Positions 24,787-44,018 of a stretch of 64,000 nucleotides of DNA are shown piece by piece. The stretch's first letter is position 1. Each line of letters opens with the position of its first letter. Below the pieces are notes generated by a model. It searched no databases and was not told where the DNA came from. It worked only from the letters and a program-made list of their open reading frames with translations. The position numbers and the translations under genes are program-made. Origin of the DNA: a virus (taxonomy: Duplodnaviria; Heunggongvirae; Uroviricota; Caudoviricetes); the IMG/VR virus record IMGVR_UViG_3300009856_000010, positions 1 to 64,000 of that record; one strand, 5' to 3'.

Positions 24787-25464
24787 TCACTTTAAAAGGC
24801 GTTTTAGATTATCTTTCTGTCTTACGTTCGTAAATGCAGACAATTCTTTAATCAACTCAAGAATCTTCTCCTTCGGTGGTTCGGGTAGGTGGTGATTACC
24901 GCTATCAGCTCCGATGTTTACCACAACAGGACTACACTTTTTTATTAATTCGACCATTTCGGGGATATCAAAATCCAGAATTGGTTCTATGGTTACGTAT
25001 GCAGGGTAGTGCCCACCTATATAAACCATTGCGTCCGCTCTTTCTTGTGTTGTGGGCGCATTGCCCATACAGGGATACCAACGATTTGTTTCAATGGTGG
25101 TACATATTACAGACTTCCAAAATACAGGATGGGATATGAAGTCAAGTATTCTCGCAGGATTTTTGGATTGGAACAGGTAGTGATTATCTAACTTGTTACA
25201 ATGATCAAGCGTTTTGAGGATCCATTCTTTGGGATGGGCATCGGCAAATAGATCGTTACTGCTACCTACAAATATAGAGTTATCGCTTCCTAAATCGGTT
25301 TTGAATTCCCGTTCGTCCAGTCGCGCCGGGTTGAGTTTGCCCCAGCGCTTCATATAACAGTAACCGCAATCGTGCGGACAGGCACCTTTTACGGTATTCC
25401 ATGTATGGGTTACGAAGTCATACATGTTTCCTTTTGATGGATTCAGGCTCATGGTTCTACCCAC
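24787..25464 (-). CDS. radical-SAM-like protein (CxxxCxxC: GACPHDCGYCYM), 225 aa
   Basis: Cys triad spacing typical of the radical SAM 4Fe-4S cluster near the N-terminus. Confidence 0.35.
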   Translation of the reverse strand: MGRTMSLNPSKGNMYDFVTHTWNTVKGACPHDCGYCYMKRWGKLNPARLDEREFKTDLGSDNSIFVGSSNDLFADAHPKEWILKTLDHCNKLDNHYLFQSKNPARILDFISHPVFWKSVICTTIETNRWYPCMGNAPTTQERADAMVYIGGHYPAYVTIEPILDFDIPEMVELIKKCSPVVVNIGADSGNHHLPEPPKEKILELIKELSAFTNVRQKDNLKRLLK

Positions 25465-27542: not shown

Positions 27543-28373
27543 TTACAATTTTATCTCCTTCAGTTTTACTCCCCTTATTTTCGGATTCGCCCATTCCCGT
27601 TGAAACGCTTTCCACTCTTTATCATATTCCCCTTTGAAATCACGATACAGCATGGCCATAGGAACAAACCCCGCTCTCCATGTATCGTGCATCCGTTTCA
27701 GTGCCTGGTCTATTGTGTCTTTCTTCCAACCGCAAAGCACATAGGCATACATGTGGTGGGCACTACGGGTAAACCCTGCATCAAACAGCATTTTGCCTGC
27801 TTCCACCAGCGGTTCATAATCGTTGGGAGTATCGTAGGCGAAATAGATGCTACGTGGCTTCAGGTTGTGCAAACGTTCGGAGATGACAGGGGTGAGAAGC
27901 TTTGCTTCCAGCCCGCCACAAAATTCCGGCCGGTGCGGTTGTCGGGCCAACATCTCAAATACCCGGTCGATGTGCACATCAGAGCAGGCAAGCAGGTTGT
28001 CATCCGTCAGTATCCAACCGTCGGTAACGGGGAGTTCGCGGAGCTGCCCACCCTCACGCTTGGGTACCGAACAGAACCAGCAACGGTTTGGGCACCCGCG
28101 TGAGGTGATGACGTATCCTTTCTTCATGTACATGCCCGGCACAAAGTCGCCGCCGACTTCGTTGTATGCCGGTCCTCCGACTTTCACCGGTGCCACTGCC
28201 TGCCATGCCCGAGCGGCTTTCTCTGCCCAAGGGATATCCCACGTAAAGGCAACGGAGATGTGTACTTCGTCGGCATCGTCGAACAGGGTAGGGTAGCACC
28301 TTATGCGGACGTTCTCGTCGTCGGGCGTGGCTCTGGTTTCGGTGGGGAAGATGCGGAGGATTTTCTTTGGCAT
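27543..28373 (-). CDS. radical SAM protein (276 aa)
   Basis: Canonical Cx3Cx2C motif GCPNRCWFC. Confidence 0.45.
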   Translation of the reverse strand: MPKKILRIFPTETRATPDDENVRIRCYPTLFDDADEVHISVAFTWDIPWAEKAARAWQAVAPVKVGGPAYNEVGGDFVPGMYMKKGYVITSRGCPNRCWFCSVPKREGGQLRELPVTDGWILTDDNLLACSDVHIDRVFEMLARQPHRPEFCGGLEAKLLTPVISERLHNLKPRSIYFAYDTPNDYEPLVEAGKMLFDAGFTRSAHHMYAYVLCGWKKDTIDQALKRMHDTWRAGFVPMAMLYRDFKGEYDKEWKAFQREWANPKIRGVKLKEIKL

Positions 28374-28385
28374 GGTTGGCGAGGG

Positions 28386-29210
28386 TTATTTACGTATGTT
28401 CCACATTTTCTCGGTACCTTCGCTATTAAAGAGTACGTCGATGTTGGCTCCATTCTTCTTTTCAATAATATCCCAGGCTTTCAGTTGAATGAATTGGGCG
28501 GAAGTCAATCCCATTTCCTGTTGATAAGCTTTGTCGGATATGGCACGCTGACGTTCGGCAGCTTCGCGCGACTGTTCCATTTCTTTCCGGCGGTCCTGCG
28601 TAGTTTTTGCCTGGATCTGTGCGGCGGTATTATTCATTTCGGCCAACTGCGGGGCGTTTGGCATGGCTCTGCCAGTTATAACACTAATGACTTGTATGGG
28701 CATTTCGGCTTTCTCCGACAGCCTGGCTATATATCCTATCATGTCGTTCTTTACCATGGAGTCTATTTGCGCAATGACCTCACGGTTACTGGTTAAGTCG
28801 AACGGGCTATACTGCGATACATAATGGCGGGTCGTGTTGCAATAGGTTTCTTTTATATTATTGGCATACCAGTCCAGTCCGTAGTTGCTGAGTAATATGG
28901 GTGATTTACCTTTTGTAATCTGTAAGGTGATGTTTGTTTTAAAGTCTAGTGGTGTATTTTCGTTGGAGATAATGTCGTCCAACACTTCTTCGTACTTCAC
29001 CGGAATAATTTTAAAGTACTCTTTACTGGTACTGAATACGCACCAGGTAGAACCCGAACTCATCGGTTCCGCACTGACACCACCATGTCCAAAGAACCAC
29101 GGGTGTTTGATGAATACGCATTCTTCGTCGGCATCGGCACTGGCCAAATGACAGCTGGTTAAGAATGTGCAACAGAAGGCAAACAATAATAAGAATTTAA
29201 TTTGTTTCAT
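28386..29210 (-). CDS. lipoprotein (274 aa), probably surface-exposed
   Basis: Signal peptide plus lipobox LTSC; Cys followed by acidic residues (ASADADEE) as in the Bacteroidetes lipoprotein export signal. The C-terminal Q/E/R/A-rich segment is coiled-coil-like. Confidence 0.45.
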   Translation of the reverse strand: MKQIKFLLLFAFCCTFLTSCHLASADADEECVFIKHPWFFGHGGVSAEPMSSGSTWCVFSTSKEYFKIIPVKYEEVLDDIISNENTPLDFKTNITLQITKGKSPILLSNYGLDWYANNIKETYCNTTRHYVSQYSPFDLTSNREVIAQIDSMVKNDMIGYIARLSEKAEMPIQVISVITGRAMPNAPQLAEMNNTAAQIQAKTTQDRRKEMEQSREAAERQRAISDKAYQQEMGLTSAQFIQLKAWDIIEKKNGANIDVLFNSEGTEKMWNIRK

Positions 29211-29224
29211 GTTAAGTCTGGATT

Positions 29225-29584
29225 TTACAAAGCCCGTCCAAGGCTGATATGTTCTTTATAATATTCTTTCGGCTTACACTTAACCACGTGATAATCATAC
29301 TGATAAATGTAGCAACTATATGATACTTCACACGCAATCGCATAATTGGGGTAGATATGGCTCAGCACCGTGTCTGGATACGGATGCCCGTCGAGCCACT
29401 GTTCCAGCGTGTAATACTTCTGTGGTATTAAGGCGTGCGGATCGTCTAAGCTTTTGGTAATAGCATATAATTTATTTTTCCGCTTTTCGAGAAGATGTAT
29501 CCTTGCTCTCAGCCGCGATTCTTCGTTGCGGATGTTACACAGCAAGCGGTCTGCTCTTGATTGTTTGGATGATTCTTTTTTCAT
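29225..29584 (-). CDS. hypothetical protein
   Basis: Start placed at the internal Met (MKKESSKQ) giving ATGA coupling to the C5 methyltransferase; the longer ORF runs to 29650. Confidence 0.25.
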   Translation of the reverse strand: MKKESSKQSRADRLLCNIRNEESRLRARIHLLEKRKNKLYAITKSLDDPHALIPQKYYTLEQWLDGHPYPDTVLSHIYPNYAIACEVSYSCYIYQYDYHVVKCKPKEYYKEHISLGRAL

Positions 29585-30912
29585 GCTGCAATCCTTTCCC
29601 GCACTTCTTTCCAGAACGAAAGAATATATGCGATTACTTCTACCGTCCACCCGTTGCCTAACATCTTATATATTTGGGTATCGCTCACCACCCATTCATA
29701 CCAGGAAGGGATAGTCTGTAAGCGAGAGCATTCGAGTGGGGTAAGGCGACGGATAACACCTAATAGGCATAGCCAATTATTCTGTTCCCACGCATTGGCC
29801 GACAAAGTCGGTGCTTTATCCTCAAATAACCCACCGGTATTATTTCCACGTGGACGTTGGTAAACAGCATGTGTACCCGAACTCATATCAGCCAATAATG
29901 CAGGACAGATACCATTCTCGTCATAAATTCGGTCTTGTTGATAGGGTTGTATACCACCGCTTTGTTTGCTTGGATTGAGTTGGAGAATAAGATTGTCTTT
30001 TTGTACAGATGTAATTGTGTTCGTTTTCCCATCTGTACGAGGTTCTAATTGCTGGATGTTTTTTCTCTTTTCTTCAACTAATCCTGCCTCATACTCCTTC
30101 CTTATTTCTTTCCCATATTCGGTTCGTTTTGGAGAAAGACAGGCTGATTCTCTACCTCGCATAGCAACAGCAATATAATCTCCGCACCAATTAGTATATG
30201 ATTCACCCATCAATGGCAATGATTTTTCGCCATCAAATTGCGTATATCCTTTCTTTATCCTGAATTCCTTGGATATATACTTCATCATCTTCTCGGTATT
30301 CACATAATACTTCTCATCCACATCCTCCTCCAAAATATCCCGGAGCAACAAACCTCTATCTTTTGGTTGCGGAATATCGGTATATTCACTACTAAAGAAC
30401 CCCTCTTGATTCGTCCGGATATTACTCCAATACAGTCTATCCCTATTCTGCGCACTCACCAGGTTGCTATTGATGCGAACAGGCTTCAATCCACAATACT
30501 GTGTAATGATAGAACGATGCATCTTTTTCATATTCACATTTTCGAGCAGGAACTTGACGTTCGGATTCATGCTCCGGATATGGTTCAGAATATCAATGAA
30601 TACAAAGAACAGGCGACTGCGTGGGTCATCGAACGCCAGCTGCTTGCCGGCGAACGAAAACCCTTGGCAAGGTGATCCAGCCAAGAGCAGGTCAATAGAT
30701 GCCCAATCAATGTCCCATTCTCGCCACCGTTTCACATCGCCCAGTTGGATGGTACCCGGAAAGTTGTGCTGTGTTTGGAGTATGGCAAACTTGTCAATTT
30801 CCGAAGCATAGTACTTCTTTACGGGTACTCCGAGTAGTTTCATGGCGATTTGTCCGCAGGACATACCGTCGAAAAGGGAGAGGAGGGTGATACCGTTATT
30901 CTTTTTACTCAT
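29581..30912 (-). CDS. DNA (cytosine-5)-methyltransferase (443 aa)
   Basis: Motif I LSLFDGMSCG and motif IV GSPCQGFS (the PC motif). Confidence 0.7.
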   Translation of the reverse strand: MSKKNNGITLLSLFDGMSCGQIAMKLLGVPVKKYYASEIDKFAILQTQHNFPGTIQLGDVKRWREWDIDWASIDLLLAGSPCQGFSFAGKQLAFDDPRSRLFFVFIDILNHIRSMNPNVKFLLENVNMKKMHRSIITQYCGLKPVRINSNLVSAQNRDRLYWSNIRTNQEGFFSSEYTDIPQPKDRGLLLRDILEEDVDEKYYVNTEKMMKYISKEFRIKKGYTQFDGEKSLPLMGESYTNWCGDYIAVAMRGRESACLSPKRTEYGKEIRKEYEAGLVEEKRKNIQQLEPRTDGKTNTITSVQKDNLILQLNPSKQSGGIQPYQQDRIYDENGICPALLADMSSGTHAVYQRPRGNNTGGLFEDKAPTLSANAWEQNNWLCLLGVIRRLTPLECSRLQTIPSWYEWVVSDTQIYKMLGNGWTVEVIAYILSFWKEVRERIAA

Positions 30913-30914
30913 CC

Positions 30915-31373
30915 TTACTTCTTCTCCTCTTCCTCCGCTGTCTTATACGGAAACACATCCATAATCGCCGTTTCCGCTATTGATGCAATCTGATAATCAG
31001 CCATGGTACCTTTCATATCTTCGTCCAGCTTCTTCACAGCATCGCGTAAATCGGCAGCTTGTATCAGGACATTTGTTGCTGTCTTTTTCTCTGCACCCGA
31101 CTTTTCGTCCAGTGTGATAAAGAGCAATTTGCTTTTGAACCAACGGTCGGCGGTTTCTTCATCGGAGAAGAATATCTCACTGAAATTTGCGCGTTTGATA
31201 TCGGCAACGGTGAACTCTCCGGTTATAAACGGTTCCAGTTCCTTAATACATTTTCCTTCGGATTCAGTAAAAGACAAAGCATCGAATAAATAAGGTTCAG
31301 TAACCTTTTTGTTCATTCCGTTCTCCATTGTCTTTTCATAACGGATTTTCACTTCAAACCATGTGTGCATCAT
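30915..31373 (-). CDS. hypothetical protein (152 aa)
   Basis: ORF. Confidence 0.3.
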   Translation of the reverse strand: MMHTWFEVKIRYEKTMENGMNKKVTEPYLFDALSFTESEGKCIKELEPFITGEFTVADIKRANFSEIFFSDEETADRWFKSKLLFITLDEKSGAEKKTATNVLIQAADLRDAVKKLDEDMKGTMADYQIASIAETAIMDVFPYKTAEEEEKK

Positions 31374-31400
31374 TTTTTTTACTATTTTATTGATTAATAA

Positions 31401-31637
31401 TTAAAATCTAAACGGGTTATTATTCCCAAACCCACCGAAGAATGATTTCAGAAAATTTTCCTCCTTACACGAAATCACTTCAAGCTTCAGGAACTTATCA
31501 CCATGCTTTCGTTTCAAATATGATTCAAAAGAGGTGGTTGCGTCCAGTTCATTACACTTGTTTTTTACTCGGAATTCCTTGTCAAAAAGGATCCCGCAAG
31601 TAAGGATGATATTGCAAATTATTATGTATGTGTTCAT
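31401..31637 (-). CDS. hypothetical small protein (78 aa)
   Basis: ORF. Confidence 0.2.
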   Translation of the reverse strand: MNTYIIICNIILTCGILFDKEFRVKNKCNELDATTSFESYLKRKHGDKFLKLEVISCKEENFLKSFFGGFGNNNPFRF

Positions 31638-32029
31638 TCCTCGTCTTTTAATAATTTCAATGCCAATTCAGGATTTTGCGCAATGGCAATAGCTTTCAGT
31701 AATGTGTCTCCATCAATTTTTTCAGGCTGATAGGGTTGCGATACCAATGGCAGTTGTTCCGTTTTCATCTCGTCCAATTTATTATTGATAGCTGTAAATT
31801 GCTGATAGAAACGAGTTTCGGATTCCTGTCTAGCAACTTGAACTATGTGTTTCTCTATTTGCTCAAAAGGAATGGGAATTGCCATTACTGCGGCATTTTT
31901 TTGTTCCGAAACAAGCACTATATTAGATACTAGTCCGTCATTAACCATATATAGTCCCGAAGAAGGATAGGAAGATGTTTCCCATATATTTTTACCCTTT
32001 AAATCATATTCGCTTATCTCTATTATCAT
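31634..32029 (-). CDS. hypothetical protein (131 aa)
   Basis: ORF. Confidence 0.3.
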   Translation of the reverse strand: MIIEISEYDLKGKNIWETSSYPSSGLYMVNDGLVSNIVLVSEQKNAAVMAIPIPFEQIEKHIVQVARQESETRFYQQFTAINNKLDEMKTEQLPLVSQPYQPEKIDGDTLLKAIAIAQNPELALKLLKDEE

Positions 32030-32111
32030 AATTGATTTAAAATTTAATTAAACATAATTGCTGTAGCATTCCAAAACGCTTTAAAACGCTATTAAACATA
32101 AGGTTGATTAT

Positions 32112-32597
32112 CTACAATTTTTTGATTGTTCCTTGCTTCAATGCCGAGATGAAATTTGTTAATGACATTTTTCCACTTTTAGTTGGTTTCAGCATCATTC
32201 CGAAGCGTTCAATTTCTTCTTTTATATATTGCTTCTGCGCATCAGACGCAGCATAACAAACATATCCCTGTTCTGTATTTATCTTTGTAATTTTTGCCGA
32301 TATTTCTTTTCGGGATCCATACCAAAGCATTCCAACATATACATTCTTCTCATAGAAATCTTTTGCCTCTAAATACTCTTTGTTTCGCTCTTCCTCATAT
32401 TCCTTTTTCTTTTGTTCTCTTTTTTCTCCTTCGTAAAGTGTATACATTGGAATTGTAGCAAGAAGTTGCAACGCACCTAAGTTATTTCCACCAACAGGAA
32501 AAGGATATGTCCAACCGTTGAACGTAAGAGGGAAAGGTGGTTGCCCACCTTTCTTTGAGGTTTCAAATTCGTGTATTTTGTAGACTTCCATTGTCAA
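32112..32597 (-). CDS. hypothetical protein (161 aa)
   Basis: ORF. Confidence 0.3.
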   Translation of the reverse strand: MTMEVYKIHEFETSKKGGQPPFPLTFNGWTYPFPVGGNNLGALQLLATIPMYTLYEGEKREQKKKEYEEERNKEYLEAKDFYEKNVYVGMLWYGSRKEISAKITKINTEQGYVCYAASDAQKQYIKEEIERFGMMLKPTKSGKMSLTNFISALKQGTIKKL

Positions 32598-32617
32598 AGG
32601 AATAAAGGGTTAAAGAA

Positions 32618-32721
32618 CTATAGAAAAGCGCAAATAGGACGAACCTGGCTGTAGTTGCTCTTATAGTTGCTGCTCGTATCACCATCGTACCAATTGAGCA
32701 ACCAAGAGGACGACGCTGATT
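32618..32721 (-). repeat. DGR variable repeat VR1
   Basis: Aligned to TR 34630-34733; 7/7 substitutions in the core fall at TR adenines (coding strand). Confidence 0.75.
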
Positions 32722-33394
32722 GTTCCGTAGAAGTTTCGTGCCAGCCATAGAACAGCGGGTCACCCCCGCAAATAGTGAGGGCTGCATCTATCATATTCTT
32801 ATGCTTTTGAAGGAATATCTTTTCGCCCAAAGCAGAAAGGTACCATGTACCTGCCGGTATATTTCCACAAGAATACTCATCGCAATACTTAGCGGCCGGG
32901 CTTCCTGCTGCAACCAACTGGGCAGTATTGGCCTTACCGTTCCAATCCTCTTTTGCCTGGTCGAAATCTTCGTACTGATTGGATGTTGCTATTTCCCGTG
33001 ACGGTAAGTATTGAAGTTCTTCAGGAGAAGATTTCAAAGCAATTCCATACTTTCTATCGCCTTCTACCACAGCAATACATACGGGCGTTTGGTCTTGATA
33101 GTTTAACCATTCTCCCGGACGAATGCAGTTGTTCTCCATGGTCAGGATATAAACACCGTCGGCGCAACCGGCAGGGAAAGTAGAGGGAATAAACGCTTTT
33201 AAATCAGATTCGCATACCCAACCTATATCTTTAGGTTCAAGGCATATATAATAAAGTCCTTCCATTTCATAAGAATCACCTTCTTGTTCGGCAGGCTTAA
33301 ATGCTTTTTTTATCTCTACTACTCTTCCAATCAACTCCCTGTTAGGATGATCTGCGATAATAGCCTTATCGCCTGCTTTAAATTTCAATTCCAT
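32618..33394 (-). CDS. DGR target protein 1 (258 aa), DUF1566/C-type-lectin-like variable C-terminus
   Basis: C-terminus ...SASSSWLLNWYDGDTSSNYKSNYSQVRPICAFL aligns to the TR-encoded peptide; WYLSALGE motif is typical of DUF1566. Confidence 0.7.
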   Translation of the reverse strand: MELKFKAGDKAIIADHPNRELIGRVVEIKKAFKPAEQEGDSYEMEGLYYICLEPKDIGWVCESDLKAFIPSTFPAGCADGVYILTMENNCIRPGEWLNYQDQTPVCIAVVEGDRKYGIALKSSPEELQYLPSREIATSNQYEDFDQAKEDWNGKANTAQLVAAGSPAAKYCDEYSCGNIPAGTWYLSALGEKIFLQKHKNMIDAALTICGGDPLFYGWHETSTEQSASSSWLLNWYDGDTSSNYKSNYSQVRPICAFL

Positions 33395-34863
33395 ACATTT
33401 ATTCCTTTTAAAAGTTTCTTTTTCAATATTCTGTTTTTCTTATACTTATTCTTTACGCTGATTTTCTCGAAATGTCCACTGATGTAACACACCTTCCACC
33501 AGAGCGGAGAAATGCGGCGGGCGGCCTTGCGACGGATGCCATACGTAGAAAAGTGCGACATCATCCCGAAATATGAATTCATGCAAGAGGCAAAGTATTC
33601 GGCCTGCTCGTACACATATCCTTTGTCTGCGGCAGCCAACTGGTTTAGTTCGTCAATGCGGGCATAGAAACTGTTGCGACTGCGGTTGGCCACATACGTT
33701 CTGCCGGGCTTTACCACAGCGCCGATATATTTTACACCCTTTGATACGTGTTGAAGATAAATTTTGTCCGGGTGCAATGTCAATCCCAATGTGTGCAGAT
33801 AGTTGCGAATATCTGCAACGGCCTGTTTCAAGGCTTCGCGGTTGGTACTGATGATATAGAAATCATCTACATATCGACCGTAGAACGTGAAACGGTATTT
33901 CATCAGATGATCGAACGCATTGAGGAAGAAATTGGCACTCACCTGCGAAGTCAGGTTCCCGATTGGAATGCCGTGTCCTGCCGGAGAAGTGAACAGGCTT
34001 TTCCCTACCGGGAGCTCGGCCCATGCATCGGGGTGCGACTTACGGATACAATTCCGTTCGGGTTCGTTTAGAATGGTTTCCCGCATCAGGTAGATAAGGG
34101 TGTCTCTATCCGCGCCCGTATATCGCTCGGTGATAAACGAAGCGAGCATATCGCACAACTGACTGCGGGGGATACTCATAAAGAAACTGCGGATGTCGAG
34201 TTTCAAGGCCCAGCAATCTTTTGTATAATTGGCGGAGCATTGGCGGATATGATCTTCCAACGTCCGGATACCGAAATGTGTACCCTTACCTTTGCGACAG
34301 TTGCTTGTTTCGTCAATAAACAGTTCTTCGAGCAACGGGTTGATGCGGTTGATAAGCAGATGATGTATAATGCGGTCTCGGAACGATGCAGCGAATATTT
34401 CGCGCTTCACCGGTCGGGTGATAATAAACGTAATGCTGCGCTGCGGGTGGTAGGTACGGTTGTTTATTTCCTCACACAGTTCCACGCAGTTGGCTTCGTA
34501 GTTTACCTCGAACGCCATAGCACTGACTGTGTTACGTTTATTCTTCCGGCAATCCAGATACGCCGCAATCACATCTTCCAACCGAATGGGAGAAGCAAAC
34601 AGATAATCAGGACACGTTTCTACGGTTTCCTGTAGTGAAGCGCAAATAGGACGAACCTGGTTGTTGTTGTTCTTATTGTTGTTGTTCGTATCACCATCGT
34701 TCCAATTGAGCAACCAAGAGGACGACGCTGATTCTGTTGCCGATTTCTTAGTCTTAACTCCCCCATCGCAGGAAGTAGGCAACCCTTTTCTATCAGAAAA
34801 CAGGCTCTCTTCACAACCCCGTGAGGTTATGAACGCTGGCTCTTTAGTGTTGAATTTTTCCAT
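33385..34863 (-). CDS. DGR reverse transcriptase (ORF as drawn 492 aa; true start uncertain, RT domain begins after the TR)
   Basis: Motifs PIGNLTSQ (DGR-specific) and FYGRYVDDFYII (YxDD). The ORF reads in-frame through the TR (encoding ...WLLNWNDGDTNNNNKNNNNQVRPICASL) with no ATG between the TR and the RT domain. Confidence 0.75.
   Translation of the reverse strand: MEKFNTKEPAFITSRGCEESLFSDRKGLPTSCDGGVKTKKSATESASSSWLLNWNDGDTNNNNKNNNNQVRPICASLQETVETCPDYLFASPIRLEDVIAAYLDCRKNKRNTVSAMAFEVNYEANCVELCEEINNRTYHPQRSITFIITRPVKREIFAASFRDRIIHHLLINRINPLLEELFIDETSNCRKGKGTHFGIRTLEDHIRQCSANYTKDCWALKLDIRSFFMSIPRSQLCDMLASFITERYTGADRDTLIYLMRETILNEPERNCIRKSHPDAWAELPVGKSLFTSPAGHGIPIGNLTSQVSANFFLNAFDHLMKYRFTFYGRYVDDFYIISTNREALKQAVADIRNYLHTLGLTLHPDKIYLQHVSKGVKYIGAVVKPGRTYVANRSRNSFYARIDELNQLAAADKGYVYEQAEYFASCMNSYFGMMSHFSTYGIRRKAARRISPLWWKVCYISGHFEKISVKNKYKKNRILKKKLLKGINVWN
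34630..34733 (-). repeat. DGR template repeat (TR), adenine-rich AAC-codon tract
   Basis: Plus strand reads CTGGTTGTTGTTGTTCTTATTGTTGTTGTTCG, i.e. an (AAC)n Asn-codon tract on the coding strand; invariant in itself, variable in VR1 and VR2. Confidence 0.75.
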
Positions 34864-35183
34864 CCTGATATCTGTTTGCCTATTTTAGTTGTCAGCTCGG
34901 CCAATTCGGCAGCCTGACTGATTGTTATAATTTTCTTGTCCGTACACAGCCGGATAAGTGTTTTCAGTAACTCAAACTTTACCTGAAACCCTTCGAGGTA
35001 CATTGCTCTATTTGCCACATAAGTGTTAGCCAGATGAATGTATTCGAATAAATCCAGCGATACGGTTTCTATCTTCTGCCCGAAAGTATGTTTACGCGAA
35101 CGTGGGAACTGCATGGTGAGGTCTGTTATCAGACTCACCAATCTGTATGTTTCGCGATATACAGGCAGTTCCGACGTTGACAT
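34827..35183 (-). CDS. avd: accessory variability determinant Avd (118 aa)
   Basis: Four-helix-bundle family pattern LPVYRETYRL...FPRSRKHTFGQKIETVSLDLFEYIHLAN; located between target and TR as in canonical DGRs. Confidence 0.65.
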   Translation of the reverse strand: MSTSELPVYRETYRLVSLITDLTMQFPRSRKHTFGQKIETVSLDLFEYIHLANTYVANRAMYLEGFQVKFELLKTLIRLCTDKKIITISQAAELAELTTKIGKQISGWKNSTLKSQRS

Positions 35184-35213
35184 GGTTGGGTGAAGAATTA
35201 AAGCGTTAAAGGA

Positions 35214-35316
35214 TTATAGAAAAGCGCAAATAGGACGAACCTGGAAGTAGTAGAACTCATTGGTGCAGAACGTATCACCATCGTAACAACTGAGCAACCA
35301 AGAGGACGACGCTGAG
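35214..35316 (-). repeat. DGR variable repeat VR2
   Basis: Aligned to the TR; 14/15 substitutions fall at TR adenines. Confidence 0.75.
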
Positions 35317-36149
35317 TATTCCGTAGAAGACCAGATACCTCGCCAGTCCAGTGGCTTCCCTCCGCAAATGGTAAGGGATGCATCTATCATGTCCTTGTGC
35401 TTTTGCATGAATACGAGTTCGCCAAGGGATGGCAGGTACCAGTGCATACATGGCATACCCGGAGTGCTATATTTAGCACAGAACTGTGCTGCGGGAGATT
35501 TGTCTTCTAACAGATATTTGAAATGAGTAATGCCCGCAAAATCTATCTTAGCTTCAAATTGACTGGAAAATGCTTTGCTTAACACTTTGTTGGTATTATC
35601 ACTAAATTTCATAGATTCTTCGGAACCGGTCAGGGCAATAATTCGTTTCGTGTCGCCTTCGATGACGGCGATACCGACAGGTGTTAGTTTCTTATGACTG
35701 AACCATGCATCGGGGCGTATACATCTTTTGTTGGATGTTAGGATGTAAACCCCGTCGGGGGCTTCTTTATAATGAAAATTGGATTTTAGTTCGTCCAAAC
35801 TCTTGTTTATGTCTTTGAAAATTCCGGAGTAAAACAATCCAGACCATAATGAGTCTAAATCATCCGTTCCAACTATCTCAAGCGAATACTTTGGTTTCGA
35901 CAAATCAAATGAAATTTGAAAACCTTCTTTATTCCGTTCTGGAGTAATAATATACCCTTTCTCTTCAAGTAGCTGTCGCACAGAAGGTGCGAGTGTATCT
36001 ACATGAAAATATTCATGGTCTTCTTTTATAGCATCTGCTACGAACGTTGGAAGTTCTTTTAATAGATGTTCGCTTCGGTTGTTGAGAAGCATATTATAAG
36101 CTTCTCTTGCTGTAATTAGTTTCATGTTTAATCTTATTTTATAATTCAT
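35214..36149 (-). CDS. DGR target protein 2 (311 aa), DUF1566/C-type-lectin-like
   Basis: C-terminus ...SASSSWLLSCYDGDTFCTNEFYYFQVRPICAFL; HWYLPSLGELVFM motif; paralogous to target 1 over the C-terminal ~150 aa. Confidence 0.7.
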   Translation of the reverse strand: MNYKIRLNMKLITAREAYNMLLNNRSEHLLKELPTFVADAIKEDHEYFHVDTLAPSVRQLLEEKGYIITPERNKEGFQISFDLSKPKYSLEIVGTDDLDSLWSGLFYSGIFKDINKSLDELKSNFHYKEAPDGVYILTSNKRCIRPDAWFSHKKLTPVGIAVIEGDTKRIIALTGSEESMKFSDNTNKVLSKAFSSQFEAKIDFAGITHFKYLLEDKSPAAQFCAKYSTPGMPCMHWYLPSLGELVFMQKHKDMIDASLTICGGKPLDWRGIWSSTEYSASSSWLLSCYDGDTFCTNEFYYFQVRPICAFL

Positions 36150-36150
36150 T

Positions 36151-36474
36151 TTATTTATATCCCTTTTTAATCCGCCTCTCTATCTCCTTAACCTTTTCAA
36201 GTTCTCCTCTTCCCATATAGTACGCAATTTCAACCAATGCAAATACCGACAGAATAGGAACCCAATGGGGAGATTCACAACCTCTTACTTCTTCCGTTCG
36301 GAAACTCTCTGTTTCTACAGCCCTATGTAGATTGGTTAATACGGGATCCATCAAAGGTTCATCTGCTTTGTTCAGCCAATGCTTTTCCCAAAGTTCGGGA
36401 GGTAACATTTTTTTTATGTTGGATACATAATTATCTTCCGGTTGGCCAACTACCCAAGTGGATTTTTTATTCAT
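36151..36474 (-). CDS. hypothetical protein (107 aa)
   Basis: ORF. Confidence 0.3.
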   Translation of the reverse strand: MNKKSTWVVGQPEDNYVSNIKKMLPPELWEKHWLNKADEPLMDPVLTNLHRAVETESFRTEEVRGCESPHWVPILSVFALVEIAYYMGRGELEKVKEIERRIKKGYK

Positions 36475-37220
36475 TCTTTTACCAATTTATAATCATACAC
36501 CCACATCCACGGATTACTATCCCATGTACCTTTGCCATTGATTTTATCAAAGAGTGCCGCGTATGCTTTTTGCGGTGTTTCTTTAAGCGAAAAATACGAA
36601 CTGTATGCCAACTGCGGGGTTTCGCTAAGCGATAAACGTAAACTGTTAGACATCACTAAGCCCCATAACGATAAATCAGATTTAGAACCGTCTGGCATAT
36701 TTGCTCCCAAACACGTGACACCTTGGCTAATACCTTCCTTTATGCAATCTTCTTCAGATATATCCTGCAACCGTTCCGGACGAACACCCGTTATCTCAAT
36801 GAAGAACCGGGCAGCCTTGGCTGGCATAAAGAGTTTGTTAGACCAATGCTTAAAATCTTCGGGAAGAAACTGCAAAGACTGACCAATAATGCCACCAACC
36901 TGAAACCGGTACAGATACTGTGGAACTCCGTCTTTATCACCCAAATAGTAATAAGGTTCTTTGAGGTATATCCTCTCTCCTACCCTGTATTTGGGTTTGA
37001 ACTCTTTATGTGTTCCCGTCTCTGCCGACGTACCCCAAAAGCCTTGCATGTCGCTATCGACAGACATGGGGAAACGAGTGTGGTCGTGCAATCCGTCTGC
37101 GTCCGGCTGCTCGGACATAGTGCGACGGGTTTGATTTTTTATCTCTTCTATGTTGAGATGAAAAAGGGGTGGGATAAAACAGATGCCTTTCATACTTAAT
37201 TCTGTATCACAATTATACAA
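36471..37220 (-). CDS. hypothetical protein (249 aa)
   Basis: ORF overlapping the methyltransferase gene start; no firm motif. Confidence 0.3.
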   Translation of the reverse strand: MYNCDTELSMKGICFIPPLFHLNIEEIKNQTRRTMSEQPDADGLHDHTRFPMSVDSDMQGFWGTSAETGTHKEFKPKYRVGERIYLKEPYYYLGDKDGVPQYLYRFQVGGIIGQSLQFLPEDFKHWSNKLFMPAKAARFFIEITGVRPERLQDISEEDCIKEGISQGVTCLGANMPDGSKSDLSLWGLVMSNSLRLSLSETPQLAYSSYFSLKETPQKAYAALFDKINGKGTWDSNPWMWVYDYKLVKE

Positions 37221-37927
37221 GTCTCCACCATTGTTCCAGATTCCTTAAACTCTCCGCGGTCCACATCATACACATCGGCTTCTACTTTCTCAATCCATTC
37301 GCAGAACAGGCGTTCTTTCTTGCCCTCGGCAAACTGCCAGTGTTTGGATGCAATAGTCACAAGCCTTCCACCGGGTTTAAGGCACTCAAACATTTTACGG
37401 ATATGGTCTATATCCTGATTCTTTGCAAAAGGCGGATTGGCAACGATTACATCAAAAAAAGTGTTACACTCTGCAAGGAAGTCGGATCCCAATAGTTTGA
37501 AATGGTCTATTTTTGCAAGGAAAGATTGGTTGATATCCATTATCTCGTATCCAAATACATCCATTGCGGGAAACTCACGGTGAATGGCGTTCACTATTGC
37601 GCCACGTCCCGCACTGGGTTCCAGCACAATATCTTTGTTTTTAATCTCGGACAGCTCTACCAAATAGTCGGCCAAACTGTCGGGTGTGGCAAAGAATTGG
37701 TACTCTTTCTTCAGGTTTCGGTCTTCGGATGCGGTTATTTGTGCCAGCAAATCAGTAGGATCAGTAGGGAAAACAAAACCTTGTGTATTACCACCTTTCC
37801 ATTTTCCGCCGATAAATTCGAGTTGCTTTTTTATTTCGAGGTATTGTTTACGGTCTAATTGCACGGTGGGCAACTGAATGATGTTGCCGGATATGGTGCA
37901 TTGTTTTAGGATTTCGGTTGTTGTCAT
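37196..37927 (-). CDS. DNA methyltransferase, amino-methyltransferase type (N6A or N4C), 243 aa
   Basis: Motif I LEPSAGRGAI and motif IV VIVANPPF. Confidence 0.6.
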   Translation of the reverse strand: MTTTEILKQCTISGNIIQLPTVQLDRKQYLEIKKQLEFIGGKWKGGNTQGFVFPTDPTDLLAQITASEDRNLKKEYQFFATPDSLADYLVELSEIKNKDIVLEPSAGRGAIVNAIHREFPAMDVFGYEIMDINQSFLAKIDHFKLLGSDFLAECNTFFDVIVANPPFAKNQDIDHIRKMFECLKPGGRLVTIASKHWQFAEGKKERLFCEWIEKVEADVYDVDRGEFKESGTMVETCIIVIQN

Positions 37928-37940
37928 ATCATTTATATTA

Positions 37941-38138
37941 TTATAATTGTTCGTTCAGATTCAACCTATCTTTCAAGTCAGATATCATTGCATCAATAAT
38001 TTCCTTATGCCTAAAAGCCTTAATCTGATCTTCTGCATCGTAAGCTAAAGGTTCACTCATTGTATATCCACATTTTTTAGCTTCCAGTTCCCACTTCGCA
38101 ATAAAATCAAAGATTAATTCACTATCAACAGGTTTCAT
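37941..38138 (-). CDS. hypothetical small protein (65 aa)
   Basis: ORF. Confidence 0.25.
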   Translation of the reverse strand: MKPVDSELIFDFIAKWELEAKKCGYTMSEPLAYDAEDQIKAFRHKEIIDAMISDLKDRLNLNEQL

Positions 38139-38329
38139 CCTTCCACATCCTCATACACAAAAAGGACCCTATCGCAGTTATAGAGCCGATGTATCTCTTT
38201 TCGGATGATTTCAGGATCATCCGTTATATAGTTTTCTTTGATAGAAGCCGAATCTCCAGTCTCATACTTGATGTCAATCCTAGTAATCATATATTTCATT
38301 TCTTCATCGGATATAATTCATACATATTA

Positions 38330-38440
38330 TTACATCAAAAAAACATATTATGTATCTTTCTACACGCATAATATCTATTCCGCATACAAAAATACCACTA
38401 AAACATCCATTAAATGATATATTATATATGCTAAAAAACA
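38330..38440. promoter_or_regulatory. AT-rich intergenic region with iterated AAAAACATATTATG motifs
   Basis: Three near-copies read directly (aaaaacatattatgtatc, aaaaacatattatgccg, aaaaacattatttaac) plus an inverted cataatat. Confidence 0.3.
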
Positions 38441-38494
38441 TATTATGCCGTTTTAAAAACATTATTTAACTTTATAAATACAGATTATGTATGA

Positions 38495-38607
38495 AACCTC
38501 ACGGTGCGACACCAAAAAATGGCACGGTGCGAGACTTTCATCCCTCACCGTGCCGTTTCCTTTTATCTCACGGTGCGGTTTTTCGATACCGCACCGTGCC
38601 ATTTTTC
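38495..38607. repeat. nested-palindrome intergenic element, copy 3 (5 units)
   Basis: Read directly; ends GATACCGCACCGTGCCATTTTTC. Confidence 0.6.
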
Positions 38608-42431: not shown

Positions 42432-42623
42432 TTACTTACGTTTTATCTCATTATAAATCCGGGAGAGTAAAATAGATATTCCAATAAGTACATGGGCTAT
42501 GATTGCGAGCAATCCGTCTGTATTGCTACACCAGCCTATAGCCATTAGGAATAGAATAAATAGGCTAATGGCGATTTCTATTGGGGGTTTATGGTCTTTC
42601 ATGGGGTTTGTTGTTTTAATCAA
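42432..42623 (-). CDS. small membrane protein, 2 TM helices (63 aa)
   Basis: Two hydrophobic helices IEIAISLFILFLMAIGW and LLAIIAHVLIGISILL. Confidence 0.3.
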   Translation of the reverse strand: MIKTTNPMKDHKPPIEIAISLFILFLMAIGWCSNTDGLLAIIAHVLIGISILLSRIYNEIKRK

Positions 42624-43161
42624 ACTCTATCACTCTTTGCTTTTTCTTAATCACTACGTCATTTTTTAATAGCACCAGCCGACCATTCAATCCGCTTTCT
42701 TCTATTGCTTTGGTGTTATGTTCACCATAAGCAATTAGACAGGAACCGGCGCCGGGTCTATCACCTTTCGTTCCGTCCTGACGAAGAAACTGTATCCTTT
42801 TTCTGAAGAAGAATAATGAATCGGCTACATCAAGAACGTACTTCTGAAACCATGCCGAATCGAAACGATTATAAACAAGGGCTATCCCATTGCCATGTTC
42901 GGCTAACTTCTGCATAAATGCGGCAATCAATACTTTCTCGTAGGGAGGATTCAACCACACACGGCCGGACCATTTCTTAATCAAACCGTTGTCATCTATT
43001 GTATAGTATCTTTCTGCGGAATGGTTTATAGCAAGTGCTTTCAACGATGTGGACGGGTCCAAATCAAATCGCCCAAGGGAATGAATGATTTCGGGCGGCG
43101 TGTACCACTCGTTTGTCGCAGACTTGCCACCAGCACCGGCGGTTTGGAAATTTACGTTCAT
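42616..43161 (-). CDS. phage-type Dam DNA N6-adenine methyltransferase (181 aa)
   Basis: NPPY motif in WLNPPYEK; size and architecture of the small phage Dam family. Confidence 0.55.
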   Translation of the reverse strand: MNVNFQTAGAGGKSATNEWYTPPEIIHSLGRFDLDPSTSLKALAINHSAERYYTIDDNGLIKKWSGRVWLNPPYEKVLIAAFMQKLAEHGNGIALVYNRFDSAWFQKYVLDVADSLFFFRKRIQFLRQDGTKGDRPGAGSCLIAYGEHNTKAIEESGLNGRLVLLKNDVVIKKKQRVIEFD

Positions 43162-43181: not shown

Positions 43182-44018
43182 TTAATCAAACAACATCCCT
43201 GTGGATCTCGGCTCATAATTTATCCATATCACTTCCTGCACTTCACTGGATCTGATATTGTTTTTCTTTTGGGGGAATTTTATCATATTCCAATCTCCAT
43301 ATAATTCTTGCATGAGAGGGCAATCATAACTACTTATCATTGCTTTGCCTTCAATATGATGCAACCGTCTGGCCAGCTCACGATGTTGGTCTTCCGAAAA
43401 CTCATATTTGTAGTCATTGGACGAAGCACGGCATTCAAGAGGGTATGGTGGGTCAACATAGAAAAAAGCCCCGGGGAAATCTATCTTACTCAGACAATCA
43501 GAATAATCTAAATTGGTTATTTGAAAATTACTCCTGATAACATCGGCGACCTCATGCAACTTTTCTATTGCGTTGTTCCACCGTGATACAGTCTCCCCGC
43601 CTTGCGCATTTACATGTTTCTTAGCCATGTGCCAACCTTTGTTTTGATGCTGCGCACCCAGTCCGAAAAATGACTGGCGGATTCTTACATAAAATCGACG
43701 GGCCTGTTCAATAGAATCAGTAGAAGGCTCCCACGAGTTGTTGTATTCTTGTTCCGAGCAGGGTGTAAGAAGTAATAAGCGAATGAGTTCGGGTTCATGG
43801 TCTCTTAATACGGCAAAAAAGTTTGTAATATCGGCATTGATTTCATTAGCTGTTTTAATTACTCTTCCTTTATAGTTAAGAGACACAACCATACTTCCGG
43901 CAAACAAGTCTACCAAATGAGTGAAGTTGTCTGGAAAGTATTTATATAAATATTCCAGCCAGGTAAACTTACCACCGAAATAGTTGAAGGCAATTAATTT
44001 TTCTCTGTTCCCGCTCAT
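43182..44018 (-). CDS. D12-class DNA adenine methyltransferase (Dam-like, 278 aa)
   Basis: FNYFGGK motif I and FFYVDPPY motif IV. Confidence 0.65.
   Translation of the reverse strand: MSGNREKLIAFNYFGGKFTWLEYLYKYFPDNFTHLVDLFAGSMVVSLNYKGRVIKTANEINADITNFFAVLRDHEPELIRLLLLTPCSEQEYNNSWEPSTDSIEQARRFYVRIRQSFFGLGAQHQNKGWHMAKKHVNAQGGETVSRWNNAIEKLHEVADVIRSNFQITNLDYSDCLSKIDFPGAFFYVDPPYPLECRASSNDYKYEFSEDQHRELARRLHHIEGKAMISSYDCPLMQELYGDWNMIKFPQKKNNIRSSEVQEVIWINYEPRSTGMLFD

What the first reader, a model, noticed from the sequence alone, without database searches (positions are those of the whole stretch)
32618..36149. Complete diversity-generating retroelement with two DUF1566-like targets flanking the RT
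The RT ORF carries the DGR-specific PIGNLTSQ motif and YVDD. Upstream lie an Avd-like four-helix-bundle ORF (34827-35183) and a ~104-bp TR (34630-34733) whose coding strand is an (AAC)n tract, NNNNKNNNN in frame. Two paralogous genes end in near-copies of the TR: VR1 (32618-32721) and VR2 (35214-35316). By manual alignment, 7/7 (VR1) and 14/15 (VR2) core differences sit at TR adenines, the signature of mutagenic homing. The architecture target-avd-TR-RT-target, with the second target overlapping the RT stop, is less common than the canonical single upstream target. Both targets are short proteins outside the tail module, so what they bind is open.
Basis: partly seen in the sequence, partly recalled or inferred. 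Interest (0 to 1): 0.85.

Follow-up and report, generated by a model that had tools for sequence, protein, structure and literature searches.

The report
Phage DGR with two flanking targets
This is a complete, apparently working diversity-generating retroelement in an uncultured phage that hypermutates the binding tips of two small lectin-fold proteins; it is a well-formed new example of a known system, not a new kind of system.

Summary
All parts lie on the minus strand: target 2 (36149-35214), Avd (35183-34827), a 94-nt template repeat (34731-34638), the reverse transcriptase (to 33385), and target 1 (33394-32618).

- **Repeats:** recomputed alignments give 7/7 (VR1) and 14/15 (VR2) differences at template adenines (P = 1e-4 and 3e-8). 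No fourth copy exists in the window.
- **Enzymes:** the RT's best solved relative is the Bordetella phage DGR RT. It keeps IGNLTSQ, YVDD and the two residues that promote adenine mutagenesis. Avd passes Pfam's bAvd threshold.
- **Targets:** both end in a confidently modelled C-type-lectin domain of the DUF1566/Lcl_C type.
- **Architecture:** flanking targets are rare among 80 IMG/VR relatives but recur in the closest RT subclade. Multi-target DGRs are about 15% of known DGRs.
- **Context:** the locus sits among four DNA methyltransferases, far from the tail genes. This echoes a published Quimbyvirus case.

Verdict: a new member of a known kind, of modest interest.

Two side observations deserve follow-up. 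Short tandem CTTTAAC-like repeats lie just 3' of the VRs across this clade, and a covarying helix brackets the template. What the targets bind remains unknown.

The parts
35214..36149 (-). Target gene 2 (311 aa; a public gene call uses an internal start, giving 303 aa). The N-terminal ~120 aa are helical with no recognisable family. The C-terminal ~190 aa form a DUF1566/Lcl_C-type C-type-lectin domain.
   Evidence: ORF. Pfam Lcl_C E = 0.004, below cut-off. 50% identity to target 1 over 180 aa. AF2 pLDDT >90 for residues ~122-311. The 303-aa public call is P0122.
35222..35315 (-). VR2, the variable repeat at the 3' end of target 2. It has 15 differences from the TR core: 14 at TR adenines and one G>T.
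35190..35221 (-). VR-specific 3' flank of VR2 (TTCTATAATCCTTTAACGCTTTAATTC), absent from the TR. It is a candidate IMH-distal target-recognition element. No hairpin is present.
   Evidence: The flank is 80% identical to the VR1 flank over 20 nt, against 51% for the paralogous domains. The CTTTAA motif is enriched 3' of VRs across the clade. No stable fold (z = +1.69).
34827..35183 (-). Avd accessory variability determinant (118 aa).
   Evidence: Pfam bAvd 3.3e-19, 69.8 bits against a 40-bit cut-off. NCBIfam DivGenRetAVD 3e-15, below its cut-off. PHROG 'Avd protein of DGR' 7.9e-26.
34785..34801 (-). 5' strand of a predicted long-range RNA helix that brackets the TR (GUUUUCUGAUAGAAAAG). It is a candidate 'cPRT Stop'-type duplex of the DGR RNA.
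   Evidence: RNAalifold on six relatives gives 15 pairs, 7 with compensatory changes and 92% of cells paired. Duplex energy is -10 kcal/mol. The region upstream of the TR evolves with pN/pS ~0.75-1.5 and low pS, which indicates a nucleotide-level rather than protein-level constraint.
34638..34731 (-). Template repeat (TR) core, 94 nt with 28 adenines. The local alignment extends it to 34630-34735. The mutagenised tract is 34706-34661 and holds 24 adenines.
   Evidence: This gives about 2.8e14 DNA variants and 1.3e14 peptide variants per target. One AAG codon can mutate to a TAG stop.
34625..34640 (-). 3' strand of the TR-bracketing helix (CUUCACUACAGGAAAC). It overlaps the TR-specific (IMH*-like) end of the template.
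33385..34590 (-). DGR reverse transcriptase. The mechanical ORF runs on upstream to an ATG at 34863, in frame through the TR. The real start is unresolved, because no ATG lies between the TR and the RT domain and the only candidate is a TTG near 34575.
   Evidence: Pfam RVT_1 4.2e-24. PHROG reverse transcriptase 2.8e-93. Best PDB hit is bRT 8UB7 at 6.7e-23, with the R74 and I181 equivalents, IGNLTSQ and YVDD conserved. More than 6,600 homologues at E <= 1e-10.
32618..33394 (-). Target gene 1 (258 aa). Its start overlaps the RT stop by 10 nt. The N-terminal ~66 aa form a small beta-rich domain (phrog_2529, function unknown). The C-terminal 180 aa form a DUF1566/Lcl_C-type C-type-lectin domain.
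   Evidence: phrog_2529 4.6e-6 and phrog_4245 1.5e-9. AF2 pLDDT >90 for residues 79-258. Foldseek hits 4EPS at E = 6e-5 and Lcl C-terminal domain 8Q4E at 5.6e-4.
32626..32719 (-). VR1, the variable repeat at the 3' end of target 1. It has 7 differences from the TR core, all at TR adenines.
32598..32625 (-). VR-specific 3' flank of VR1 (TTCTATAGTTCTTTAACCCTTTATTCC), absent from the TR. The next gene is not avd. No hairpin is present.
   Evidence: (z = +0.56).

Best explanation
This is a complete, probably active DGR of the avd-TR-RT type, carried by an uncultured phage whose contig is at least 83 kb.

**Proposed mechanism (inferred by homology to the Bordetella phage BPP-1 system):**
1. The cassette target2-avd-TR-RT-target1 is transcribed from the minus strand.
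2. An RNA containing the TR, probably closed by a helix between sequences just 5' and 3' of the TR, is bound by the RT-Avd complex.
3. The RNA is reverse-transcribed with random misincorporation opposite the 24 adenines of the central tract.
4. The mutagenised cDNA replaces the last ~90 nt of either target gene. Homing is directed by the shared GC-containing 3' end (CCAGGTTCGTCCTATTTGCGCTT) plus a VR-specific flank that the TR lacks.

**Outcome:** each target can take about 1e14 variants of a roughly 15-residue surface patch on a DUF1566/Lcl_C-type C-type-lectin domain. The scaffold residues stay fixed.

**What the targets are:** the two proteins share the variable ligand-binding domain but have unrelated N-terminal domains. 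I infer that these N-terminal domains place the same kind of variable binder in two different settings.

**Shown:** gene content, family assignments, the adenine-specific TR/VR pattern, the fold, the architecture and its recurrence in relatives.

**Inferred:** current activity, the RNA helix, the role of the flank, and what the targets bind.
For: - **TR/VR pattern:** 7/7 and 14/15 mismatches fall at TR adenines (P = 1e-4 and 3e-8). 27 of 28 TR adenines are at codon positions 1-2, and both VRs stay open. The two VRs differ from each other, as expected for independent homing events.
- **RT:** nearest solved structure is bRT. The signature IGNLTSQ, YVDD and the R74/I181 equivalents are conserved (their roles are described in 10.1101/2020.04.29.068544).
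- **Avd:** above Pfam's cut-off.
- **Target fold:** C-type lectin, nearest to 4EPS and Lcl_C. 25 of 41 short relatives hit Pfam Lcl_C.
- **Relatives:** the closest RT relatives have the same cassette. L002 has three adenine-biased VRs on both sides of avd-TR-RT (13/14, 14/15 and 15/17).
- **Contig ends:** contig L085 starts and ends in VR 3' ends, L003 and L084 end at the start of a downstream VR, and L086 starts in an upstream VR. This is as expected if repeated or heterogeneous VRs break assemblies.
- **RNA helix:** the TR-bracketing helix has 7 of 15 pairs with compensatory changes. It matches the distal upstream/downstream duplex reported for 207 of 278 Avd-type DGRs.
- **Flank:** the post-VR flank is conserved between the two paralogues well above the rest of the gene.
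Against: - There is no direct evidence of ongoing diversification. Only one copy of this phage exists in the collections searched, so VR heterogeneity could not be scored.
- VR2 carries one non-adenine (G>T) change.
- The RT start codon is unresolved.
- No GC hairpin follows either VR. That element is needed for efficient homing in BPP-1, although only 34% of DGRs have one.
- The RNA helix rests on six sequences in two sublineages, and it was predicted from the same alignment on which it was scored.
Confidence: 0.9

Rival explanations
1. A fossil DGR. The cassette once diversified both targets but is now inactive, and the VR differences are relics.
For: No population data could be obtained. 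VR2 has one non-adenine change. The RT lacks an obvious ATG start after the TR. No hairpin follows the VRs.
Against: All ORFs are intact. The catalytic and mutagenesis-promoting residues are conserved. The TR and the non-adenine VR positions are identical over 94 nt except for one base, although the paralogous genes are saturated elsewhere (34% third-position identity). That argues for recent homing. Contigs of close relatives break at VRs.
Confidence: 0.08
2. Ordinary paralogous repeats. The three copies are a duplicated gene end kept similar by gene conversion, and the adenine bias is a coincidence of an A-rich tract.
For: The TR core is 30% adenine and the asparagine-rich tract is low in complexity.
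Against: The hypergeometric tests already allow for the adenine content (P = 1e-4 and 3e-8). Direction is consistent, because only the non-coding copy next to the RT carries the adenines. An Avd and a DGR-clade RT sit exactly between the copies. 69 related loci show a TR/VR pair with the same adenine bias.
Confidence: 0.01
3. The RT is made as a fusion protein. Translation would start at the ATG at 34863 and run through the TR-encoded peptide into the RT, so the template also encodes an N-terminal extension of the enzyme.
For: One open frame runs from 34863 through the TR into the RT, and no ATG lies between them. The closest relatives P0002-P0006 have the same fused frame, and P0002 and P0003 also lack an internal ATG.
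Against: The region upstream of the TR evolves with pN/pS of 0.75-1.5 and depressed pS. That is a nucleotide-level constraint, not a protein-level one, and it is explained by the covarying RNA helix. Many relatives start the RT with an ATG just after the TR. A TTG at about 34575 gives an N-terminus of normal length. In Bacteroides phage Bacuni_F1 the TR is annotated as a separate small ORF.
Confidence: 0.15

Closest known systems
Bordetella phage BPP-1 DGR (mtd-avd-TR-brt), the prototype
   Same: It shares the Avd + TR + RT core in the same order, and adenine-specific TR-to-VR transfer into the 3' end of a C-type-lectin-fold gene. The RT is the best solved relative (8UB7, E = 6.7e-23), with the IGxxxSQ signature and the R74/I181 equivalents conserved. 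A distal duplex brackets the template, as in the cPRT Stop.
   Different: BPP-1 has one target, the tail-fibre protein Mtd, in the structural module, followed by a GC hairpin. Here there are two small targets with a DUF1566-type (CLec2) rather than Mtd-type domain, one on each side of avd-TR-RT. They lie far from the tail genes, and no hairpin follows them.
Bacteroides phage Bacuni_F1/F2/F4 DGR (MT635598 and relatives; cultured B. uniformis phages)
   Same: It has a short (253 aa) target annotated 'fimbrial tip protein, DUF1566', then Avd, then a TR that forms a small DUF1566-like ORF, then the RT. Its target is the only cultured-phage hit to the window's targets (27% identity).
   Different: It has a single target, upstream only and directly after structural genes. 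The genome is 40 kb and the phage is unrelated (TerL search).
Quimbyvirus ('Quimbyviridae') DGR (Benler et al. 2021, PMC8008677)
   Same: It is a gut Bacteroidota phage DGR with two VRs. One target is non-structural and sits within 7 kb of four methyltransferases. In the window, both targets lie in a region with four DNA methyltransferases within about 14 kb.
   Different: The Quimbyvirus RT is split over three frames, its two targets are far apart, and one of them is next to the tail fibres. Here the RT is one ORF and both targets abut the cassette. No sequence relationship between the phages was detected.
DUF1566/CLec2 'category d' DGR targets (Legionella LdtA; Bacteroides ovatus BACOVA_04982, PDB 4EPS)
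   Same: They share the VR class and fold. 4EPS is the top structural match and the Lcl C-terminal domain is second. About half of category d targets are short DUF1566-only proteins.
   Different: LdtA and the Bacteroides pilus-tip proteins are secreted or lipoprotein surface adhesins of cells. The window's targets are phage-encoded, show no signal-peptide-like N-terminus by inspection, and carry novel N-terminal domains.

Membership tests
Diversity-generating retroelement (DGR) | RT of the DGR clade with the [I/V/L]GxxxSQ signature and a YxDD catalytic motif | tested here: met
   IGNLTSQ and YVDD are present. The best PDB relative is bRT 8UB7 at E = 6.7e-23, against 2e-7 for group II intron RTs. 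The R74 and I181 equivalents are conserved. No full RT phylogeny was built.
Diversity-generating retroelement (DGR) | A TR/VR pair whose differences fall almost only at TR adenines | tested here: met
   VR1 7/7 and VR2 14/15, with P = 1.2e-4 and 2.9e-8.
Diversity-generating retroelement (DGR) | The VR lies in a protein-coding target (usually at the C-terminal end), with adenines at codon positions 1-2 of the TR | tested here: met
   Both VRs cover the last ~33 codons of intact ORFs. 27 of 28 TR adenines are at positions 1-2.
Diversity-generating retroelement (DGR) | An IMH at the VR 3' end and a non-identical IMH* at the TR | tested here: inconclusive
   A shared unmutated 3' segment, CCAGGTTCGTCCTATTTGCGCTT, is followed by a VR-specific sequence (TTCTATA...CTTTAAC...) and a TR-specific sequence (CACTACAGG...). 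The layout fits IMH/IMH*, but function was not tested.
Diversity-generating retroelement (DGR) | A GC-rich inverted repeat (hairpin/cruciform) 3' of the VR. This is an accessory feature, present in 34% of DGRs. | tested here: not met
   There is no stable fold 3' of either VR (z = +0.56 and +1.69). Many RT relatives do have one. The feature is not a defining one.
Diversity-generating retroelement (DGR) | Ongoing diversification, seen as VR heterogeneity in a population | not testable with these tools
   No reads are available and no second copy of this phage was found. The only indirect support is that contigs of relatives break at VRs.
Avd (bAvd, PF22296 / NF033474) | Profile match above the curated threshold; a small four-helix-bundle protein encoded next to the TR and RT | tested here: met
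   Pfam bAvd scores 69.8 bits against a 40-bit cut-off. NCBIfam DivGenRetAVD scores 56 bits, below its 80-bit cut-off. The PHROG Avd match is 7.9e-26. No structure was predicted and no PDB sequence hit was found.
DUF1566 / Lcl_C (PF07603) C-type-lectin targets (CLec2, category d) | Pfam match above the gathering threshold | tested here: not met
   15.0 and 17.8 bits against a 34.9-bit cut-off.
DUF1566 / Lcl_C (PF07603) C-type-lectin targets (CLec2, category d) | C-type-lectin fold matching solved DUF1566/Lcl_C structures, plus homology through intermediates | tested here: met
   AF2 pLDDT is above 90 for both C-terminal domains. Foldseek finds 4EPS at E = 6e-5 and Lcl_C 8Q4E at 5.6e-4 for target 1; target 2 was not fold-searched. 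25 of 41 relatives found by profile search hit PF07603, the best at 3e-9.
Wu et al. 2018 Architecture B (avd-TR-RT core) | Gene order avd, TR, RT on one strand, with the target(s) adjacent | tested here: met
   The order is target2-avd-TR-RT-target1, all on the minus strand, with gaps of 30 nt or less or overlaps between genes. I did not look up which of the 48 published sub-architectures this corresponds to.

The most novel reading that the evidence does not exclude
The two diversified proteins may not be virion receptor-binding proteins. They may instead be intracellular, DGR-varied binders used in phage-host conflict, for example to capture or block variable host restriction or defence components. 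They share one hypervariable lectin-type domain, which sits on two different N-terminal effector or adaptor domains.

The evidence that leaves this open is as follows. Both genes sit in the replication and DNA-modification region with four DNA methyltransferases, about 18 kb from the tape-measure gene and about 29 kb from the tail-fibre gene. They have no signal-peptide-like N-termini. The whole cassette recurs next to SSB, DUF4494 and Rep genes in relative L002.
Probability: 0.2. Interest if true: 0.8.

Novelty: new member of a known kind. Interest (0 to 1): 0.35.

Why it matters
This is a clean, fully annotated example of a multi-target phage DGR whose targets lie outside the structural module, in a phage lineage with no cultured or GenBank relative. 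That makes it a useful test case for an open question: what do non-structural phage DGR targets do?

It also defines a small RT subclade (the window, L002, L003, L084-L086) in which targets sit on both sides of avd-TR-RT.

Two cis features could be tested directly in the reconstituted DGR systems now available. One is the tandem CTTTAAC-like repeats 3' of the VRs, found in place of or in front of the known hairpin. The other is a covarying helix that brackets the TR.

None of this changes what is understood about how DGRs work.

Tried and rejected
- **Looking for this phage elsewhere.** All searches failed:
  - megablast of the locus against 50,697 phage records gave no match;
  - an exact-pattern scan of IMG/VR for the VR/TR 3' end gave no hits;
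  - a single-protein RT scan of IMG/VR confirmed nothing;
  - an exact look-up of the identical RT (P0001, from an 83,155-bp JGI contig) returned no DNA.
- **Pattern scans of metagenome and genome contigs.** Each gave 11 single hits in unrelated taxa. None shows similarity to the locus by blastn, so they are chance matches. VR heterogeneity could therefore not be scored.
- **Word-indexed homologue search for the targets.** It found only the protein itself, its paralogue and two distant proteins, which wrongly suggested a very rare family. The exhaustive profile search corrected this to 3,490 cluster representatives.
- **Rfam.** No family reaches its gathering score in 30000-38500.
- **Quimbyviridae membership.** I considered it and have no support for it. 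The best TerL match in the phage collection is below 30% identity, to Microcystis, Polaribacter and Porphyromonas phages.
- **TR-RT fusion protein.** I considered it and think it unlikely on the codon-level evidence.
- **A fourth VR.** I considered one at 49090-49113 (24 nt, 3 mismatches). I rejected it because it lacks the 3' repeat end and lies in the N-terminal part of a 1197-aa ORF.

Full report
**1. What is in the sequence**

All features lie on the minus strand, in this order:

| Feature | Coordinates | Size |
|---|---|---|
| Target 2 | 36149-35214 | 311 aa |
| Avd-like ORF | 35183-34827 | 118 aa |
| ORF holding the template repeat and the RT | 34863-33385 | 492 aa |
| Target 1 | 33394-32618 | 258 aa |

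- The ATG of target 1 overlaps the RT stop by 10 nt. Intergenic gaps are 30 nt or less.
- Ungapped local alignment pairs TR 34735-34630 with VR1 32723-32618 and with VR2 35319-35215.
- Over the 94-nt core (TR 34731-34638, 28 adenines), VR1 differs at 7 positions, all TR adenines. VR2 differs at 15 positions, 14 of them TR adenines plus one G>T. The hypergeometric probabilities are 1.2e-4 and 2.9e-8.
- In frame, the TR reads SASSSWLLNWNDGDTNNNNKNNNNQVRPICA, and 27 of its 28 adenines are at codon positions 1-2.
- The mutagenised tract (34706-34661) holds 24 adenines. That allows about 2.8e14 DNA variants and 1.3e14 peptide variants per target. One AAG codon can become a stop.
- The 3' end of the repeat occurs exactly three times in the window and never in shuffles. 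Sensitive blastn finds no other VR.

**2. The enzymes**

- The RT matches Pfam RVT_1 (4.2e-24) and the PHROG reverse transcriptase family (2.8e-93).
- Its best solved relative is the Bordetella phage DGR RT, bRT (8UB7, E = 6.7e-23). Group II intron and retron RTs score about 1e-7.
- The residue-level alignment shows IGNLTSQ aligned to bRT 181-187, the bRT R74 equivalent conserved, and YVDD aligned to the bRT catalytic motif. R74 and I181 promote adenine mutagenesis in bRT (10.1101/2020.04.29.068544).
- The small ORF exceeds Pfam's bAvd threshold (69.8 vs 40 bits). It matches the PHROG 'Avd protein of DGR' (7.9e-26) and NCBIfam DivGenRetAVD below its cut-off.

**3. The targets**

- The two proteins share 50% identity over their last 180 residues and nothing before that.
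- Pfam gives only sub-threshold Lcl_C (former DUF1566) hits.
- The word-indexed search found almost no relatives. An exhaustive profile search found 3,490 cluster representatives at E <= 1e-3. They include many ~200-260-aa proteins of the same design and giant proteins with several copies of the domain. 25 of 41 short relatives hit Pfam Lcl_C.
- AlphaFold models place residues 79-258 of target 1 and about 122-311 of target 2 at pLDDT above 90.
- Foldseek against the PDB, run on the target 1 model, returns 4EPS first (Bacteroides ovatus BACOVA_04982). A Bacteroides DGR study uses that structure as its reference for pilus-type variable proteins. The Legionella Lcl C-terminal domain comes second, followed by snake-venom C-type lectins.
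- The N-terminal domains are modelled poorly.
  - Target 1 has a beta-rich ~66-aa domain matching phrog_2529, of unknown function.
  - Target 2 has a ~120-aa helical region with no family match.
- By inspection, neither protein starts with a signal-peptide-like segment.

**4. Context**

- The window is phage DNA. It holds a tail-fibre-like gene (162-3644), a weak terminase match (14854-16848) and a head protease (21391-22944). It also holds a tape-measure gene (54139-60309), a sliding clamp, an HU-like protein and DUF4494.
- Four DNA methyltransferases lie at 29581-30912, 37196-37927, 42616-43161 and 43182-44018.
- The DGR sits among the methyltransferase and replication genes, about 18 kb from the tape-measure gene and about 29 kb from the tail-fibre gene.
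- No phage in GenBank is close. TerL is below 30% identical to anything there, and there is no nucleotide match.

**5. Relatives and architecture**

- The RT has more than 6,600 homologues at E <= 1e-10. The best non-self hit is 67% identical.
- I ran my own TR/VR detector on 80 IMG/VR loci (RT 39-54% identical), three Logan loci and the window.
  - A TR/VR pair with at least 75% of mismatches at adenines was found in 69 loci.
  - 61 of them have one same-strand VR upstream of the RT. In 59 of these it lies 600-1000 nt away, which is the VR-avd-TR-RT arrangement.
  - One has a single same-strand VR downstream (L008), and four have a single VR downstream on the opposite strand.
  - One has two VRs upstream (L064), and one has a VR upstream plus another 7.3 kb downstream (L078).
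  - Only the window and L002 (RT 56%) have same-strand VRs close on both sides. L002 has three VRs (13/14, 14/15 and 15/17 mismatches at adenines) and sits next to SSB, DUF4494 and Rep genes.
- Short contigs carrying the next-closest RTs are bounded by VRs.
  - L085 begins and ends in VR 3' ends.
  - L003 and L084 end at the start of a downstream VR.
  - L086 begins in an upstream VR.
- So the flanking layout is a trait of this RT subclade. The contig ends are what repeated or heterogeneous VRs would produce.
- A gut phage DGR with a non-structural target among four methyltransferases has been described for Quimbyvirus (PMC8008677).
- Cultured Bacteroides phage Bacuni_F1 has a short DUF1566 target-avd-TR-RT cassette.

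**6. Cis elements**

- *No hairpin.* Neither VR is followed by a hairpin. This is not unusual, because only 34% of DGRs have one.
- *A conserved VR-specific flank.* Each VR is followed by a sequence that the TR lacks: TTCTATA(G/A)(T)(T/C)CTTTAAC(C/G)CTTTA(T/A)T.
  - The two flanks are 80% identical over 20 nt. The paralogous domains upstream are 51% identical, and 34% at third codon positions.
  - Because the TR lacks this sequence, homing cannot be what keeps the two flanks alike.
- *The motif across the clade.*
  - CTTTAA occurs in 23 of 45 dereplicated 50-nt stretches 3' of VRs, against 0 of 43 stretches 3' of TRs.
  - TTTA[AT]C occurs in 53% of the stretches 3' of VRs, against 3.5% of random windows.
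  - The motif often forms 2-4 tandem ~9-nt units, followed in many loci by a GC hairpin with a GAAA or GGTA loop.
  - It also follows VRs that are not next to avd (window VR1 and two VRs of L002), so it goes with the VR rather than with the avd promoter.
  - It is not enriched in the window overall (22 found, 30 expected).
  - I found no description of it in the DGR papers I searched. That is not proof that it is new.
- *A helix that brackets the TR.*
  - The stretch between avd and the TR is conserved in six relatives, with pN/pS of 0.75-1.5 and low pS. This is a constraint on the nucleotides, not on a protein.
  - RNAalifold pairs 34801-34785 with 34640-34625 across the TR. The helix has 15 pairs, 7 of them with compensatory changes.
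  - For the whole predicted structure, 91% of cells are paired, against 35-51% when the partners are slid.
  - This corresponds to the distal upstream/downstream 'cPRT Stop' duplex seen in the bRT-Avd-RNA structure and predicted in 207 of 278 Avd-type DGRs (10.1101/2023.10.23.563531).
  - Caveats: there are only six sequences in two sublineages, and the structure was derived from the same alignment.

**7. The RT start**

- The mechanical ORF begins at an ATG overlapping avd and runs in frame through the TR. No ATG lies between the TR and the RT domain.
- Given the codon-level result, I think a TTG near 34575 or another non-ATG start is more likely than a TR-peptide-RT fusion. This remains unresolved.

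**8. Verdict**

- The finding is a real, complete and probably active DGR.
- It is a new member of a known kind. Its flanking-target layout is uncommon among relatives but recurs within its subclade. Its genomic context has one published parallel.
- What the two variable proteins bind, and whether they are virion or intracellular proteins, is open.
- Interest is modest (0.35). The non-structural reading and the VR-flank repeats are the parts worth an experiment.

Noticed in passing
window 32598-32625 and 35190-35221 (minus strand); also 3' of VRs in L002, L006, L007, L017, L020, L027-L041, L046, L063 and others: Two to four tandem ~9-nt CTTTAAC-like units lie immediately 3' of the VRs and never 3' of the TRs. 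CTTTAA occurs in 23 of 45 stretches 3' of VRs against 0 of 43 stretches 3' of TRs. In many relatives a GC hairpin with a GAAA or GGTA loop follows; the window has the repeats but no hairpin. This is a candidate VR-specific recognition element. I found no description of it in the DGR papers I searched.
   Followed up: partly
window 34785-34801 paired with 34625-34640 (minus strand): A predicted 15-bp long-range RNA helix brackets the TR, with 7 pairs showing compensatory changes among six relatives. It resembles the published cPRT Stop duplex of DGR RNAs. Two further covarying hairpins are predicted upstream of the TR, at alignment columns 5-28 and 55-102.
   Followed up: partly
window 33385-34863 (minus strand): The RT ORF is open and in frame from an ATG inside the avd 3' end, through the TR, into the RT domain. 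No ATG lies after the TR. The closest relatives share this layout. Codon analysis argues against protein-level selection upstream of the TR, so the true RT start is unknown and may be a TTG near 34575.
   Followed up: partly
window 29581-30912, 37196-37927, 42616-43161, 43182-44018: Four DNA methyltransferase genes (one C5, one Dam-like, one D12-class N6A and one N6/N4-like) lie within about 14 kb around the DGR. Two radical-SAM-like ORFs (24787-25464, 27543-28373) and an SPFH protein (28386-29210) are also nearby. Together these look like an anti-restriction or DNA-modification island.
   Followed up: partly
window 49090-49113 (minus strand), inside the 1197-aa ORF 46290-49883: A 24-nt match to TR positions 25-48, with 3 mismatches and in the same reading frame (NWHDGDT against NWNDGDT in the TR). 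It lacks the 3' repeat end and lies in the N-terminal part of the ORF. It is probably chance or a remote lectin-like motif, not a VR.
   Followed up: partly
L001 10001-10699 (Logan SRR30543675 contig, 53 kb): The closest non-self relative of the targets found by the word-indexed search (P0123, 33% identity, 232 aa) is encoded directly after a tail-fibre gene in an integrase-bearing prophage. No repeat pair at all was detected in that locus. So the same domain family occurs in a tail context without diversification.
   Followed up: partly
window 13716-14723 (minus strand): This ORF matches a PHROG annotated 'abortive infection resistance protein' (1.3e-53) and sits next to the putative terminase. 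It is a possible counter-defence or superinfection-exclusion gene.
   Followed up: no
L002 333-998 and 1039-1755: In the related phage fragment L002, a fourth paralogue of the target domain (gene 333-998) lies next to the remote VR-bearing target but has no detectable VR. The target family there has expanded to four copies, of which three are diversified.
   Followed up: no
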